This document shows, piece after piece, positions 17,757-23,209 of a stretch of 64,000 nt of DNA (position 1 is its first letter; each line of letters begins with the position of its first letter). The translations under genes were made by a program, and so were the position numbers. This DNA comes from Candidatus Melainabacteria bacterium 17Bon1m (GTDB lineage: Bacteria; Cyanobacteriota; Vampirovibrionia; Obscuribacterales; Obscuribacteraceae). The stretch is from positions 64,001-128,000 of the forward strand of contig JAVLKG010000010.1 in assembly GCA_032128875.1 (NCBI GenBank). Reading direction: 5' to 3'. A model generated the notes under the pieces. The model saw only the letters and a program-made list of their open reading frames with translations, did no database searches and had not been told where the DNA came from.

Positions 17757-17968
17757 ATAACCGGTGAGCAATCACTCGAACGAGTTGAGAGCTTTGAGCC
17801 GAGGGGCCCTGTGGAAACATCAGGTTGGCGCTAACCAGATACGGTAGCAAGGGACCCGCATCACATGAAGGACTGACTGAAGTGTGGTGAAATACTGAGC
17901 CCAACGCAAGGGGCAGTCAGGCAGTAGCATGAAGACCGTCGCAGAGCAATCTGGACGGTCTTTTTGTT
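17757..17968 (+). ncRNA. Unidentified structured non-coding RNA, copy 1
   Basis: About 12 differences from 20041-20252 over ~170 core nt by eye; compensatory or GU-compatible changes in stems; GNRA tetraloops; ends in an intrinsic terminator. Confidence 0.8.
17932..17968 (+). terminator. Intrinsic terminator of RNA copy 1
   Basis: AAGACCGTC-G-CAGA-GCAA-TCTG-GACGGTCTT then TTTGTT. Confidence 0.85.
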
Positions 17969-20040: not shown

Positions 20041-20252
20041 ATCAACGGTGAGCAATCACTCAAACGAGTTGAGAGCTTTGAGCCGAGGGGCCATGCGGAA
20101 ACGCCAGGTTGGCGCTAACCAGAAACGGTAGCAAGGAGCCCGCATCACATGAAGGACTGACTGAAGTGTGGTGAAATACTGAGCCCTCGCAAAGGGCAGT
20201 CAGGTAGTAGCATGAATACCACCGCAGAGCAATCTGGGTGGTATTTTTGTTT
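20041..20252 (+). ncRNA. Unidentified structured non-coding RNA, copy 2
   Basis: Paralog of 17757-17968 with covarying stems and terminator; no ORF of 60 aa or more overlaps it. Confidence 0.8.
20215..20252 (+). terminator. Intrinsic terminator of RNA copy 2
   Basis: AATACCACC-G-CAGA-GCAA-TCTG-GGTGGTATT then TTTGTTT; three compensatory pairs relative to copy 1. Confidence 0.85.
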
Positions 20253-20277: not shown

Positions 20278-21024
20278 TTGTTCGACTTCGTCCTTCAACT
20301 ACTTAGCTTTCTGGTTATCGCCCTGCTCTACTCCTCAGTCGGGCACGGCGGTGCGACAGGATATCTCGCGATTTTATCGCTGACCAAACTGCCGCCCAAT
20401 GAAATAGCCACGACGGCATTAGTCCTCAACGTGCTCACGGCAACAGTCTCGCTGTTGTTCTTTATCGAATCAAAACACTTCAAATTGAAGGTGTGCGCGC
20501 CACTTCTTGCAACTTCGATTCCAGCAGCTTTTGTTGGTGGAATGATTTCGCTGCACAAGGGCTATTTTCTGCTGCTCGCAGTCGTTCTTTTAGTGACTGC
20601 TTTGAAAATGTTTTACGACAGCTTTCACAAACCCGCTGAAGATTACGAAACCAAGCCGATCAATTATCCTCAAGCATTCGGAATTGGCGCGGGACTTGGA
20701 CTGCTCTCTGGAATGGCTGGTATCGGTGGTGGTGTCTTCCTAAGTCCAGTTCTTTTATTTTTGAACTGGACCACGGTTAAGCAAACTTCCGCAGCGGCAG
20801 CAATTTTCATCGTCTGTAATTCACTCTCTGGGCTGATCGGCAGGGCGGTGACAAACAGATTGGAGTTTGGGTCGATAATGCCGTATTTGGTGGCATCATT
20901 TATCGGAGCGATTGCCGGATCATTTCTTGGTTCGAAAAAACTTCAAAACAATATTCTGCGGCGTGCTTTAGCCGCAGTCCTCATTGTCGCAGTATTTAAG
21001 CTGCTTTTGCTGTTCTTCAAGTAA
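20278..21024 (+). CDS. Sulfite exporter TauE/SafE (TSUP) family transporter
   Basis: YSSVGHGGATGY, SIPAAFVGG, GLLSGMAGIGGGVFLSP, about 8 TM helices. Confidence 0.92.
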   Translation: MFDFVLQLLSFLVIALLYSSVGHGGATGYLAILSLTKLPPNEIATTALVLNVLTATVSLLFFIESKHFKLKVCAPLLATSIPAAFVGGMISLHKGYFLLLAVVLLVTALKMFYDSFHKPAEDYETKPINYPQAFGIGAGLGLLSGMAGIGGGVFLSPVLLFLNWTTVKQTSAAAAIFIVCNSLSGLIGRAVTNRLEFGSIMPYLVASFIGAIAGSFLGSKKLQNNILRRALAAVLIVAVFKLLLLFFK

Positions 21025-21069
21025 GACTAAAACCGTCGGCATCCTGCCGGCAAACGATGAAGATGCATA

Positions 21070-21420
21070 CTACTTCTTCAGCAGCAGCTCTATATAAGCT
21101 TCTTCGTTGAAGCCGACGACTATTGTCTTACCTTTACGGAACGTCGGCGCTCTTAAGTTGCCCGTTGGTCCCATCATCAGTGAGGCAATTTCGTCACTGT
21201 CCGCTTTCGCCTTCTTCAAATCGAGGCGAACAATCTTTTTGCCCTTCATCGAATAAAGCTCGTCGGCCTTCGCAGCCATTTCCAACGCAGCCGTTCTATC
21301 AATTTTGTTCTTCTTCGCATCAACGACAACATCCGCTGACACATGTTTGCGCCCAAGAAACTCATGGGCTTTCACGCAGGTCTGTCAGCCATTGCGGTAA
21401 TACAGCCACTCAATTGACAT
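21070..21420 (-). CDS. ArsC/glutaredoxin-like selenoprotein (116 aa, U12-Q-T-C15)
   Basis: GGAGG RBS, ATG 21420, MSIEWLYYRNG-TGA-QTC continuing in frame into the track ORF (VKAHEFL...GPTGNLRAPT...VGFNEE); hairpin just 3' of the TGA. Confidence 0.85.
21348..21378 (-). promoter_or_regulatory. Candidate bacterial SECIS element
   Basis: mRNA after UGA: CAGACC-UGC-GUGAAA-GCCCA-UGAGUUUCU-UGGGC-GCA; apical loop begins about 20 nt after the UGA with G at loop position 2. Confidence 0.55.
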
Positions 21421-21648
21421 TTCACTAACCTCCGAAGTCGAAAAGCATTATCTCACCGGGCTCTCAAGGGGAAAAGGCAGGTCGCTTAAGGATAGCCAAA
21501 GTCTCAAACCGGGCGCCCGTGGGCGAGCGTTTGAAATCTCTGTTATTTTGCAGAATATGGGAATATCTTCTGGGGGCTCAAAGTCTCAGGAGCATTTATC
21601 AGAGGCACTAAAGGGAATCCCCAAAGACCAGTTTTAAGGAGCAGCTTC

Positions 21649-22455
21649 ATGCACTTCAATCTCACCCAATTTGCTAATCCAGGTAGCCCAAAACGGGCGA
21701 CCAGAGGGATTCGTAGCCTTCTTAAAGCTTCGGTACCAATCTGTCTATGCGCGACATTTGTCTTGGCAAATGCGGGTTGGGCGGCGGATGCCGCCTTTAA
21801 CGCAGCCGTGCAGACCTTTCACCAAGGCAAGTATGCAGCGGCTCTTGCGCAGTTTCAGGTAGTCGCTCAGAAATACCCTAACGACCCGCTGACCCGTTAC
21901 TACATGGGTCTGTGTTATCAGCACACAAATCAGGTCACGAACGCCCAAGCTATGTACACGTGGGTGGAGCAAAATGCTCGCAGCCCACAATTAAAGGCTC
22001 AGGCAAGAGCAGGGCTCGATTCTATGACGAAATACAGCCAAACCCGCAGTCATCGCGGCTCAGCGTCATCTGACCTGCCGCCCCTGCCGAGTGGCAAGCC
22101 TGACGACCCGAAAGCCCCGGCTGACCCGAAAGCTCCAAAAACTGCCGACGCAAAGAAAGAAGAAAAAGGTGCGTTGAAGTGCAAAAAGGTTATCCAATTT
22201 ACTTCTAGCTCGAGCAACGACCAGCGGACCCTTCAGTTGTTCGGACCATTTTGGGATTCTGCTCAGCAGAAGTTTCAAGGCAAGGTCGAGTTTCAGTTGG
22301 TTGACGTAGACAACGCCGGCTCAGAAGCTCTAGTTAAGAAGTACTCGCCGTCGACTTATCCACACCTAATCTATTTGGACAAAGACGGAAAAGTGCTAAA
22401 CAGCCAGGGCGGTGCTTCTGGCGACATCATCGGCACGATCGAAGGGTTTAAATAA
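21649..22455 (+). CDS. Exported TPR protein with a C-terminal thioredoxin-like domain lacking CxxC
   Basis: AAGGAG RBS, signal-like segment ending AGWA, TPR (YPNDPLTRYYMGLCY), Pro/Lys linker, Trx-like VEFQLVDVD...KY...YPHLIYLDKDGKV. Confidence 0.75.
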   Translation: MHFNLTQFANPGSPKRATRGIRSLLKASVPICLCATFVLANAGWAADAAFNAAVQTFHQGKYAAALAQFQVVAQKYPNDPLTRYYMGLCYQHTNQVTNAQAMYTWVEQNARSPQLKAQARAGLDSMTKYSQTRSHRGSASSDLPPLPSGKPDDPKAPADPKAPKTADAKKEEKGALKCKKVIQFTSSSSNDQRTLQLFGPFWDSAQQKFQGKVEFQLVDVDNAGSEALVKKYSPSTYPHLIYLDKDGKVLNSQGGASGDIIGTIEGFK

Positions 22456-22459
22456 ACTT

Positions 22460-23146
22460 CTAAGTCTTCTCTGACAGAGCGTATGCAGCAATGCCGAACG
22501 CGACAGAAACGTTCAGTGATTCTTTCATGCCTTTCATTGGCAAGTCAGCGACGATATCGCTGAGCGCCAGCGCCTCTGCAGAGACACCAGAAACCTCATT
22601 ACCGACAACCAGGCAAAGCGGCCTGGAGATTTTTCCTTCAGCGAGTAACTTAGTAAGCGGCTGAGAGTTTTCTGTTTTCTCCAACGCAACAATGTTGAAG
22701 CCGCGCTCTTTTAGTTCTCTCAAAATCTCGATGCAACCAAAACGCCATTCCCAATTGACGGTGTTTTCCGCACCAAGACTGACTTTCTCAATCTCTTTGC
22801 GAGGTGGTGCGCCGGTAATTCCGCACATATAAATCTTGTCCATGCCTGCACCATCCGCGGTGCGGAAAATTGCGCCGACATTGAACAAACTGCGCACATC
22901 TTCCACGACGGCCACAAACTGTTCTACATAACCGTTGCCACTTTTAGCGCTGTCATTGATGTTGACGATGCCCATGCGCTTGCGCTTTTCCTGCTCTCTC
23001 TCGAGCGTGGCAAAAACAGCAGCCAAACGGGCGGTAATGTGGCGCCCACAAGCAGGACATGTGGTCTTCGTGCGCCCGGCAGGAAGGTCGGCGCTGAAGC
23101 GCTCGTGACATTCCGGGTAAGGGCAAAAGGTTTCCGTAAGCGGCAT
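22460..23146 (-). CDS. SpoU/TrmH family RNA methyltransferase with N-terminal Zn ribbon
   Basis: VRSLFNVGAIFRTAD, VVGNEVSGVS, LPMKGMKESLNVSVA; CPYPEC...CPACG at the N-terminus. Start 23146 preferred over 23209. Confidence 0.9.
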   Translation of the reverse strand: MPLTETFCPYPECHERFSADLPAGRTKTTCPACGRHITARLAAVFATLEREQEKRKRMGIVNINDSAKSGNGYVEQFVAVVEDVRSLFNVGAIFRTADGAGMDKIYMCGITGAPPRKEIEKVSLGAENTVNWEWRFGCIEILRELKERGFNIVALEKTENSQPLTKLLAEGKISRPLCLVVGNEVSGVSAEALALSDIVADLPMKGMKESLNVSVAFGIAAYALSEKT

Positions 23147-23209
23147 GATGGATAAAAACCAATGGACAAGCAAGATTTCTACCATCACGAGAGTACTCCG
23201 CACAATCAC

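What the first reader, a model, noticed from the sequence alone, without database searches (positions are those of the whole stretch)
21070..21420. Hidden selenoprotein: UxxC ArsC/glutaredoxin-like protein recoded at UGA
Seen: strong RBS and ATG, 11 codons, TGA (21385-21387), then QTC and 101 more in-frame codons; the TGA sits where the first Cys of CxxC belongs and a stem-loop follows. Known: UxxC thioredoxin-fold selenoproteins need SelA, SelB, SelD and tRNA-Sec. The ORF track truncates the gene and loses the active site. Sec use would be notable if the host is a cyanobacterial relative.
Basis: partly seen in the sequence, partly recalled or inferred. Interest (0 to 1): 0.75.

Follow-up and report, generated by a model that had tools for sequence, protein, structure and literature searches.

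The report
ArsC-like selenoprotein gene, UGA recoded
This is a real but ordinary selenoprotein gene: a small redox protein whose twelfth codon, UGA, is read as selenocysteine, in a non-photosynthetic relative of cyanobacteria that carries the full selenocysteine machinery.

Summary
On the minus strand a GGAGG ribosome-binding site, an ATG (21420), 11 codons, TGA (21385-21387), Q-T-C and 101 further codons give a 116-aa frame that ends at TAG 21070-21072. Read with Sec, it matches NCBIfam NF041106 "ArsC family (seleno)protein" over its full length (136.5 bits, cut-off 85). The TGA aligns with a Cys codon in 23 homologous loci and with TGA in 87 loci (82 distinct) from about a dozen phyla. A 7-bp hairpin that starts 15 nt after the TGA (21351-21369, loop AGUUU) is kept with covariation in the TGA forms. 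It is absent from the Cys forms. The genome has tRNA-Sec, selB, selD and selA, and selA lies on the window's own contig. It also has at least three more UGA-containing redox genes, and TGA is otherwise an ordinary stop codon there. Named relatives place the host in Obscuribacterales (Melainabacteria). The model puts U12 at the N-cap of helix 1 of an Spx/YffB/ArsC-like thioredoxin fold. The substrate is unknown, and it fails the Spx, glutaredoxin and ars-operon tests. Verdict: a correct call and a new member of a known selenoprotein family. Public records store its nearest relatives truncated.

The parts
21429..21433 (-). Shine-Dalgarno GGAGG, 8 nt upstream of the ATG
   Evidence: Read directly. 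The same CGGAGG stands upstream of the start in 6 of the 8 same-genus orthologues.
21070..21420 (-). Complete coding sequence of a 116-aa ArsC-family selenoprotein (ATG 21418-21420 to stop TAG 21070-21072), read with UGA = Sec at codon 12
   Evidence: Translation. NF041106 scores 136.5 bits against cut-off 85, covering profile positions 1-107 of 107. Pfam ArsC PF03960 scores 29.9 bits against 24. The whole-genome search finds it with '1 TGA' inside the match.
21385..21387 (-). In-frame UGA, codon 12, read as selenocysteine; first residue of the U-Q-T-C redox motif
   Evidence: It aligns with TGA in 87 loci and with TGC/TGT in 23. In the AlphaFold2 model residue 12 lies between strand 2-8 and helix 13-24.
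21376..21378 (-). TGC, Cys15, the resolving cysteine of UxxC
   Evidence: C15 is invariant in the 30-sequence alignment A3.
21351..21369 (-). SECIS hairpin: 7-position stem (G21369-C21351 ... G21363-C21357, with a U-U mismatch at 21364/21356 in this genus), loop AGUUU at 21358-21362; the stem starts 15 nt after the A of UGA
   Evidence: In the TGA forms 89.5% of cells are paired. No shuffle of 500 reaches this, and slid controls give 20-55%. The Cys forms give 45.5%. The loop G is kept in 86 of 87 TGA forms against 2 of 23 Cys forms. Hairpin MFE is -9.09 against -2.36 kcal/mol.

Best explanation
The gene encodes a 116-aa cytoplasmic thioredoxin-fold protein of the ArsC/Spx/YffB superfamily. 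It belongs to the curated family NF041106, 'ArsC family (seleno)protein'. Its active-site motif is U12-Q-T-C15. During translation the UGA at codon 12 is not read as stop. The hairpin 15 nt downstream (loop AGUUU, with a near-invariant G-U) serves as a bacterial SECIS. It recruits SelB-GTP carrying Sec-tRNA(Sec) (anticodon UCA), which was charged through SelA and SelD, and selenocysteine is inserted. This mechanism is inferred from established knowledge of bacterial Sec insertion and from the parts shown here; selenium incorporation was not measured. The product most likely acts as a small selenol/thiol oxidoreductase. Sec12, at the N-cap of helix 1, would attack a substrate. Cys15 would resolve the adduct into a selenenylsulfide, which the cell's thiol systems would then re-reduce. 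That chemistry is inferred from the fold and motif, and the substrate is unknown.
For: Family: NF041106 scores 136.5 bits against cut-off 85 over the full length.

Sec/Cys pairing: among 30 over-cut-off orthologues in 61 related genomes, 19 have one TGA and 11 have none. The TGA aligns codon for codon with Cys in W-x-Y-x-R-x-G-[U/C]-x-x-C. Among 80 further loci from named contigs, 68 have TGA and 12 have TGC/TGT. After 5 duplicates are removed there are 82 distinct TGA forms and 23 Cys forms.

SECIS: in the TGA forms 89.5% of hairpin cells are paired; 0 of 500 shuffles reach this value or the covariation score. Pair 30-44 shows GC 53, CG 12, UG 8, UA 6 and AU 2 across the 87 loci. The Cys forms give 45.5% paired, no better than slid controls.

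Machinery in the same genome: tRNA-Sec, selA on the window's own contig C10, selB, selD.

TGA is otherwise a normal stop: it ends 901 of 3546 ORFs of 300 or more codons.

The trait is in use elsewhere in the genome: three other genes carry an in-frame TGA in a redox motif. They are WSMTUHSC in an AhpC-TSA/TlpA-like protein, WUGPC in a TPR-thioredoxin and CGAU in a SelW/Rdx protein. Each has a hairpin about 18-23 nt after its UGA with GU in the loop.

Co-occurrence: selA was found in 16 of 19 genomes with the TGA form. Four of the five genomes that are at least 90% complete, hold the gene and lack selA carry the Cys form.

Fold: the AlphaFold2 model has pLDDT 91.8, with U12 between strand 2-8 and helix 13-24. 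The best structural and sequence matches are Spx, YffB and putative ArsC chains with CxxC at the same place.
Against: There is no direct evidence of selenium incorporation or of expression. The hairpin folded alone is not significant (z = -1.43), and no Rfam family matched it at gathering thresholds. Three genomes with the TGA form showed no selA: G002 (93% complete), G003 (84%) and G005 (82%), all fragmented MAGs. One TGA locus, L101, lacks the standard hairpin and loop G: it has 3 of 7 pairs and loop ACUUC. Five others fit only with the register shifted by one. Related genomes are not independent, so the shuffle statistics overstate significance. Structural similarity to solved ArsC/Spx chains is moderate (TM 0.53-0.56). 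Gene neighbourhood gives no functional clue across phyla. The enzymatic role therefore remains inference.
Confidence: 0.92

Rival explanations
1. The UGA is a true stop. The real product is the 101-aa protein that starts at GTG 21375 (or a pseudogene remnant), and the 11 upstream codons are a short leader ORF.
For: Standard ORF calling gives exactly this 101-aa ORF. Public collections store the nearest relatives as proteins of 101, 100, 89 or 68 aa named 'hypothetical protein'.
Against: The truncated form would lack strand 1 and both redox residues of the fold. The 11 upstream codons, including the invariant W5, Y7 and R9, are conserved in frame across phyla and in the Cys forms. The strong RBS precedes the ATG, not the GTG. 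A covarying hairpin specific to the TGA forms would have no explanation.
Confidence: 0.03
2. The TGA is a sequencing or assembly error, or a recent nonsense mutation of a Cys codon.
For: TGA differs from TGC/TGT by one base, and the genome is a draft of 35 contigs with 4.49% estimated contamination.
Against: All 8 same-genus genomes in which the gene was found have the same TGA (the other 4 same-genus genomes, 64-83% complete, gave no match). So do 82 distinct sequences in all, from about a dozen phyla as labelled.
Confidence: 0.01
3. The UGA is read as a standard amino acid, either through a reassigned code (Trp or Gly) or through near-cognate read-through, rather than as Sec.
For: Reading TGA as sense also opens the frame, and nothing here measures which residue is inserted.
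Against: TGA terminates 901 of 3546 long ORFs, so it is not reassigned. The aligned residue in homologues is always Cys (23 of 23 non-TGA loci). The complete Sec machinery is present. A SECIS-like hairpin is conserved.
Confidence: 0.02
4. Rival on function only, Sec reading accepted: the protein is a genuine glutaredoxin-coupled arsenate reductase (ArsC).
For: Pfam ArsC PF03960 is above threshold (29.9 bits against 24). Solved chains named arsenate reductase appear among the matches (2m46, 2kok; 3f0i, 3rdw). JGI names relatives 'arsenate reductase-like glutaredoxin family protein'.
Against: No ars genes lie nearby. The neighbours are a TauE/SafE exporter, a TPR protein and a SpoU methylase, and no neighbour is conserved across phyla. 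The motif is UxxC, as in Spx-type CxxC proteins. The best-scoring solved relatives are Spx and an uncharacterised 'putative' ArsC.
Confidence: 0.1
5. Rival on function only: the protein is an Spx/MgsR-like redox-sensing regulator that binds RNA polymerase.
For: The top structural matches are Spx chains (6gho, E 1.4e-4, TM 0.56). The CxxC of Spx sits at the same place.
Against: TIGR01617 (Spx/MgsR) scores 39.8 bits, below its cut-off of 75.05, and the Spx equivalogs score 14-22 bits against cut-offs of 123-159. The model has a beta-hairpin (residues 54-67) in the middle subdomain, and TM to Spx is only about 0.55.
Confidence: 0.05

Closest known systems
NCBIfam NF041106, ArsC_rel_Se_1, 'ArsC family (seleno)protein'
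   Same: Full-length match well above the curated cut-off (136.5 against 85 bits, profile 1-107 of 107). Same [U/C]xxC motif, same length class, and a mix of Sec and Cys members.
   Different: Nothing found that sets it apart. It is a member from a lineage (Obscuribacterales) whose public records store the gene truncated.
'ArsC-like' bacterial selenoproteins of Zhang, Romero, Salinas and Gladyshev 2006 (PMC1794560; passages and tables read)
   Same: A thiol-oxidoreductase homologue of the ArsC fold with Sec in place of a redox Cys.
   Different: That paper lists two sequences, from Deltaproteobacteria (Desulfotalea, and a 'distant ArsC homolog' in Desulfuromonas). I did not compare them with this protein, so identity of the families is not shown.
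Spx (Bacillus subtilis and relatives; PDB 1z3e, 3gfk, 6gho) and YffB (PDB 1rw1)
   Same: Same thioredoxin-like ArsC/Spx/YffB fold, with the CxxC (Spx) at the N-terminus of helix 1.
   Different: Scores are below every Spx family cut-off. TM is only about 0.55. The first redox residue is Sec rather than Cys. Nothing indicates RNA polymerase binding.
Glutaredoxin-coupled arsenate reductase ArsC (Pfam PF03960)
   Same: Pfam domain match above threshold, and the nucleophile lies near residue 12.
   Different: UxxC dithiol-type motif. No ars operon context. The arsenate-binding arginines were not tested.
Bacterial SECIS elements, such as that of E. coli fdhF (recalled, not from a call)
   Same: A hairpin inside the coding sequence shortly after the UGA with a conserved G-U in the apical loop. 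PMC12013277 (passages read) states the general requirement for such an element plus SelA, SelB, tRNA-Sec and SelD.
   Different: The sequence is family-specific. It doubles as codons A-Q/H-E-F-L-G, and pairing is kept by coupled changes in the Ala/Thr/Ser codon and in the codon after Leu.

Membership tests
NF041106 ArsC family (seleno)protein | HMM score above the curated cut-off over the full profile | tested here: met
   136.5 bits against 85; residues 3-109 on profile 1-107 of 107. In the genome search, 128.9 bits with one TGA inside.
NF041106 ArsC family (seleno)protein | [U/C]-x-x-C redox motif at the N-terminus, aligned with other members | tested here: met
   U12 and C15 fall in invariant columns of A3. 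The alignment is printed.
Bacterial selenoprotein (SelB/SECIS-dependent UGA recoding) | In-frame UGA aligned with Cys in homologues | tested here: met
   87 TGA loci (82 distinct) against 23 Cys-codon loci at the same column.
Bacterial selenoprotein (SelB/SECIS-dependent UGA recoding) | Conserved stem-loop immediately downstream of the UGA, with evidence of selection for pairing | tested here: met
   89.5% of cells paired, against 20-55% in slid controls and 45.5% in Cys forms. Four Watson-Crick pair types plus G-U occur at pair 30-44. The loop G is kept in 86 of 87. The single-sequence energy alone is not significant.
Bacterial selenoprotein (SelB/SECIS-dependent UGA recoding) | selA, selB, selC (tRNA-Sec) and selD in the same genome | tested here: met
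   all four are above curated cut-offs, and selA is on the same contig as the gene.
Bacterial selenoprotein (SelB/SECIS-dependent UGA recoding) | Selenium actually incorporated at the UGA position | not testable with these tools
   Needs 75Se labelling or mass spectrometry.
Arsenate reductase ArsC (glutaredoxin-coupled type) | Pfam PF03960 domain | tested here: met
   29.9 bits against 24.
Arsenate reductase ArsC (glutaredoxin-coupled type) | Arsenate-binding arginine triad around the catalytic Cys (feature recalled, not from a call) | not tested
   R9 and R90 are invariant in A3, but I did not establish their equivalence to the ArsC arginines.
Arsenate reductase ArsC (glutaredoxin-coupled type) | ars operon context (arsR, arsB/ACR3) | tested here: not met
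   The neighbours are TauE/SafE, a TPR protein and a SpoU methylase. No neighbour recurs across phyla.
Spx/MgsR regulators (TIGR01617 and Spx equivalogs) | Score above the curated cut-off | tested here: not met
   TIGR01617 scores 39.8 against 75.05; NF002459 scores 21.6 against 123.
Glutaredoxin (PF00462) | Score above the gathering threshold | tested here: not met
   14.8 bits against 22.9.

The most novel reading that the evidence does not exclude
Selenocysteine decoding may be a widespread, possibly ancestral, trait of the non-photosynthetic branches of Cyanobacteriota that is missing from the oxygenic phototrophs. In a sample of 301 genomes of the phylum, selA was above cut-off in 24 and a photosynthetic reaction-centre gene in 122, with no overlap. 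In the host's own family, selA matched in 28 of 36 genomes. On this reading the ArsC-like gene belongs to a small redox selenoproteome (at least four genes here) that public MAG annotations miss systematically. Sec/Cys exchange would follow gain or loss of the machinery.
Probability: 0.35. Interest if true: 0.5.

Novelty: new member of a known kind. Interest (0 to 1): 0.27.

Why it matters
For this gene the practical point is annotation. Without UGA recoding the protein is stored as a truncated 'hypothetical protein' that lacks its active site, and this is how the nearest public relatives are held. Beyond that, it documents an active Sec system with at least four selenoprotein genes in Obscuribacterales, non-photosynthetic relatives of cyanobacteria. 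[quoted passage not shown] The only later mention my searches found is a passing note of one annotated Sec residue in a 'Candidatus melainabacteria' proteome (PMC9529120; searches). The family also gives a clean example of a SECIS hairpin that constrains the amino acids it encodes.

Tried and rejected
- Rfam scan of the whole window at gathering thresholds: no SECIS or other family over the gene, only two poplar-1 RNAs elsewhere.
- Single-sequence folding of the region: not distinguishable from shuffles (z = -1.43), so the case for the hairpin rests on comparison.
- Promoter/terminator scan of 20950-21700: no promoter-like site and no minus-strand terminator, so the transcript ends are undefined.
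- Gene-neighbourhood clustering over 110 loci: recurrent neighbours only within Obscuribacterales (SpoU methylase, TauE, TPR protein), apart from two Pirellulaceae loci in the largest cluster; nothing usable for function.
- Maximum-likelihood tree of the 30 orthologues: 14 of 27 inner branches are unresolved. The best tree needs 3 Sec/Cys changes, but well-supported branches force only 1, so I make no claim about direction or number of conversions.
- Formate dehydrogenase as a further selenoprotein (PF00384): two matches, neither with an internal stop.
- The scan for UxxC/CxxU candidates: 55 survived the filters, and most look like noise. Only those supported by family searches are reported, and the TPR-thioredoxin gene was missed by the filter.
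- BSepDB (PMC13326102) and deep-Sep (PMC12013277): term searches for ArsC, Cyanobacteria and (BSepDB only) Melainabacteria found nothing. Their supplements were not examined and may list this family.
- Earlier notes of this scan: nothing on record.

Full report
**1. What is in the sequence**

On the minus strand a GGAGG lies at 21429-21433. Eight bases later comes ATG at 21418-21420, followed by the codons for MSIEWLYYRNG. TGA stands at 21385-21387, then CAG ACC TGC (Q-T-C), then 101 further sense codons up to TAG at 21070-21072. Read with TGA as Sec, the frame gives 116 residues with U12. A genome scan counts 11 codons before the TGA and 104 after it. The standard ORF list reports only 21070..21375, a 101-aa ORF from a GTG. 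That ORF lacks the first strand and both redox residues.

**2. Family**

With U passed as C, the protein matches NCBIfam NF041106, 'ArsC family (seleno)protein'. The score is 136.5 bits against a curated cut-off of 85, over profile positions 1-107 of 107. Pfam ArsC (PF03960) scores 29.9 bits against 24. Several related families are below their cut-offs:
- Spx/MgsR (TIGR01617): 39.8 against 75.05.
- Spx equivalogs: 14-22 bits against 123-159.
- Pfam Glutaredoxin: 14.8 against 22.9.

**3. Sec/Cys pairing**

A search of 61 related genomes, which reads through and counts stop codons, found the family above cut-off in 30. Nineteen had exactly one TGA inside the match and 11 had none. All 8 same-genus genomes with a match had the TGA; the other 4 same-genus genomes (64-83% complete) gave no match. 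Extracting the genes shows the TGA aligned codon for codon with TGC/TGT in the motif W-x-Y-x-R-x-G-[U/C]-x-x-C.

A scan of one genome per species returned 580 confirmed stretches. I examined the best 80: 68 have TGA and 12 have a Cys codon at that position. Five of these 80 duplicate loci of the first set. That leaves 82 distinct TGA forms and 23 Cys forms.

By record label, the 68 TGA forms of that scan come from these phyla:
- Planctomycetota: 30.
- Acidobacteriota: 13.
- Methylomirabilota/Rokuibacteriota: 8.
- Melainabacteria/Cyanobacteriota: 5.
- Several other phyla: smaller numbers.

MAG labels can be wrong; one contig is labelled Klebsiella pneumoniae and one Nitrosotalea.

**4. The hairpin**

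In an ungapped alignment anchored on the TGA (A1, 19 sequences), columns 28-34 pair with columns 46-40. In the window this is 21369-21363 with 21351-21357, with loop AGUUU at 21358-21362. RNAalifold finds the same helix on its own.

| Measure | TGA forms | Cys forms |
|---|---|---|
| Hairpin cells paired (A1, 19 seqs; A2, 11 seqs) | 89.5% | 45.5% |
| Shuffles of 500 reaching the observed pairing | 0 | 83 |
| Pairing with partner slid by 1-3 columns | 20-55% | 29-56% |
| Loop G at column 36 (all 110 loci) | 86 of 87 | 2 of 23 |
| MFE of the 25-nt piece, kcal/mol | -9.09 ± 1.96 | -2.36 ± 2.06 |

In the TGA forms 0 of 500 shuffles also reach the covariation score. The Cys forms are therefore no better than their slid controls.

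Over the 87 TGA loci, pair 30-44 occurs as GC 53, CG 12, UG 8, UA 6 and AU 2. The hairpin lies inside the codons for A-Q/H-E-F-L-G. Pairing is kept by coupled changes of the Ala/Thr/Ser codon and of the codon after Leu, such as GCC...GGG, GCG...GCG, GCU...GAG and UCA...GUG.

Points against:
- Folded alone, the window's region is not better than shuffles (z = -1.43).
- One TGA locus, L101, has only 3 of 7 pairs and loop ACUUC.
- Five others fit only in a register shifted by one.
- The genomes are related, so the shuffle counts are not probabilities.

From memory, not from a call: a G in the first two loop positions and a loop 16-37 nt from the UGA are the published criteria for bacterial SECIS elements. 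Here 22 nt separate the UGA from the loop.

**5. Machinery**

The window is C10:64001-128000 of a 7.55-Mb draft of 35 contigs, 93% complete with 4.5% contamination. The genome holds:
- tRNA-Sec at C9:265840-265934: 67.5 bits against gathering score 47. ARAGORN calls it tRNA-SeC with anticodon tca.
- selA at C10:157642-159087: 496.8 bits against 267.9.
- selB at C3:941733-943661: 285.8 bits against 242.25.
- selD at C4:475050-475973: 370.2 bits against 125.

selA shares the contig with the gene, about 72 kb away. At least that part of the machinery therefore cannot be a binning contaminant. TGA ends 901 of 3546 ORFs of 300 or more codons, so the codon is not reassigned genome-wide.

**6. The trait is in use elsewhere in the genome**

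Family searches that count internal stops found two further candidates, and my own scan found a third:
- C5:51293-52309 (+), 338 aa, AhpC-TSA/TlpA-like, motif WSMTUHSC.
- L135:597-1259 (-) on contig C2, 220 aa, TPR plus thioredoxin, motif WUGPC.
- C3:460596-460937 (-), 113 aa, SelW/Rdx family, motif CGAU (TIGR02174, 58.8 bits against 34.2).

Each has a hairpin about 18-23 nt after its UGA with GU in the loop. The two molybdopterin oxidoreductase matches have no internal stop.

**7. Co-occurrence with selA**

selA was above cut-off in 16 of the 19 genomes with the TGA form. It was not found in G002 (93% complete, 350 contigs), G003 (84%) or G005 (82%). Of the 11 genomes with the Cys form, 7 have selA and 4 do not: G016, G024, G029 and G036, which are 91-96% complete. 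Among genomes at least 90% complete that hold the gene but no selA, four of five therefore carry Cys. This fits Sec-to-Cys replacement where the machinery is lost. The gene tree is too poorly resolved to count events.

**8. Host**

The nearest named contigs are MAGs labelled Candidatus Obscuribacterales (88% identity), 'Cyanobacteria bacterium PR.3.49' (83%), Candidatus Melainabacteria and Candidatus Obscuribacteraceae. The host is therefore a member of Obscuribacterales, a non-photosynthetic relative of cyanobacteria, and it has no reaction-centre gene.

selA matched in 28 of 36 genomes of its family. It also matched in the 3 genomes of family f2 (same order) and in the 2 of family f3 (same class). 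It was not above cut-off in the 19 small genomes of the other families of the class.

In a sample of 301 genomes of the phylum, selA was above cut-off in 24 and Photo_RC (PF00124) in 122. No genome has both. Five selA-bearing representatives were also checked directly and lacked Photo_RC. These are sampled genomes, so the statement is 'not found in those searched'.

**9. Fold**

An AlphaFold2 model built from the 30-sequence alignment has mean pLDDT 91.8 and pTM 0.85. It shows strand 2-8, then residues 9-12, then helix 13-24. U12 therefore sits at the N-cap of helix 1, the classical CxxC position of thioredoxin-fold proteins.

Foldseek against the PDB ranks these chains highest:
- Spx: 6gho, E 1.4e-4, TM 0.56.
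- YffB: 1rw1.
- The putative arsenate reductase 2m46.
- Other ArsC-family chains.

TM values are only 0.53-0.56. A profile search of PDB sequences gives the same set: 2m46 at 1.6e-9, Spx at 4e-9 and YffB at 2.7e-5. The CxxC of 2m46 and of Spx aligns with UxxC.

**10. Function**

Shown here: the family, the fold, the position of the motif, and the parts of the recoding apparatus.

Inferred: Sec12 acts as the nucleophile, Cys15 resolves it, and a selenenylsulfide forms and is recycled by cellular thiol systems. No signal peptide is evident in the sequence by eye.

The substrate is unknown. The window's neighbours are a convergent TauE/SafE exporter gene (20278-21024), a divergent TPR protein (21649-22455) and a SpoU methylase (22460-23209). 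No neighbour recurs outside Obscuribacterales, apart from two Pirellulaceae loci that share the SpoU-like cluster. Neither arsenate reduction nor Spx-like regulation is supported beyond fold resemblance.

**11. What is known**

- 'ArsC-like' selenoproteins were tabulated in 2006. [quoted passage not shown]
- A 2022 survey mentions one annotated Sec residue in a 'Candidatus melainabacteria' proteome (PMC9529120, passages).
- A 2016 survey mentions Cyanobacteria only for orphan SelD (PMC5029168, passages).
- Full-text searches for selenocysteine with Melainabacteria, Obscuribacter, Vampirovibrionia or Obscuribacterales found no paper on the subject.

In the protein collection the nearest relatives are stored as fragments of 101, 100, 89 or 68 aa named 'hypothetical protein'. 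A Gemmatales member of 117 aa carries the name 'ArsC family (seleno)protein'.

**12. Verdict**

The feature is a bona fide member of a curated selenoprotein family, so its novelty is low. The modest added value has three parts: the corrected annotation; evidence for an active Sec system with at least four selenoprotein genes in a non-photosynthetic cyanobacterial relative; and the sampled pattern that selA and photosynthetic reaction centres do not co-occur in the phylum.

Noticed in passing
window 17793-17931 (+) and 20077-20214 (+): Two full-length matches to Rfam RF03041, poplar-1 RNA (136.5 and 149.5 bits, gathering score 110.5). The genome holds 8 copies above cut-off, four of them clustered on C1:139142-152389. 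The second window copy ends 63 nt upstream of the TauE/SafE gene start (20278) on the same strand. From memory, this motif has no known function and was described from metagenomes. Its presence in an Obscuribacterales genome may name a host.
   Followed up: partly
G000 C5:51293-52309 (+) = L133:294-1310: A 338-aa AhpC-TSA/TlpA-like protein with an in-frame TGA at codon 230 in the motif WSMTUHSC. This is a second candidate selenoprotein gene. A hairpin follows its UGA.
   Followed up: partly
G000 contig C2, L135:597-1259 (-): A 220-aa protein with a signal-like N-terminus, TPR repeats and a thioredoxin domain. It has an in-frame TGA at codon 145 in WUGPC, giving a candidate selenocysteine thioredoxin.
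   Followed up: partly
G000 C3:460596-460937 (-) = L134:297-638: A 113-aa SelW/SelT/SelH (Rdx) family protein with TGA at codon 13 in the motif CGAU (TIGR02174, 58.8 bits against 34.2; Pfam Rdx, 68.8 bits).
   Followed up: partly
window 21649-22455 (+): The gene divergent from the ArsC-like selenoprotein gene encodes a TPR protein that is a paralogue (28% identity, E 2e-18) of the TPR-thioredoxin selenoprotein on contig C2. In the alignment, Ser stands where the paralogue has Sec and Gln where it has the resolving Cys, so the redox centre appears lost.
   Followed up: partly
G000 C10:157642-159087 against the gene at C10:85070-85420: selA lies about 72 kb from the ArsC-like gene on the same contig. 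A similar spacing (68-85 kb, same contig) is seen in G007, G011, G014, G021 and the Cys-form genome G033. This is conserved synteny within the family, not tight linkage.
   Followed up: no
phylum-level sample: In 301 sampled genomes of the phylum, selA (24 genomes above cut-off) and the photosynthetic reaction-centre family PF00124 (122 genomes) never occur together. The selA-bearing genomes fall in five families outside the host's class, besides the host itself.
   Followed up: partly
public protein collection: The nearest relatives of this protein are stored as N-terminally truncated fragments of 68-101 aa, mostly unnamed or 'hypothetical protein'. This is a systematic mis-annotation of the family in Obscuribacterales and Melainabacteria MAGs.
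   Followed up: no
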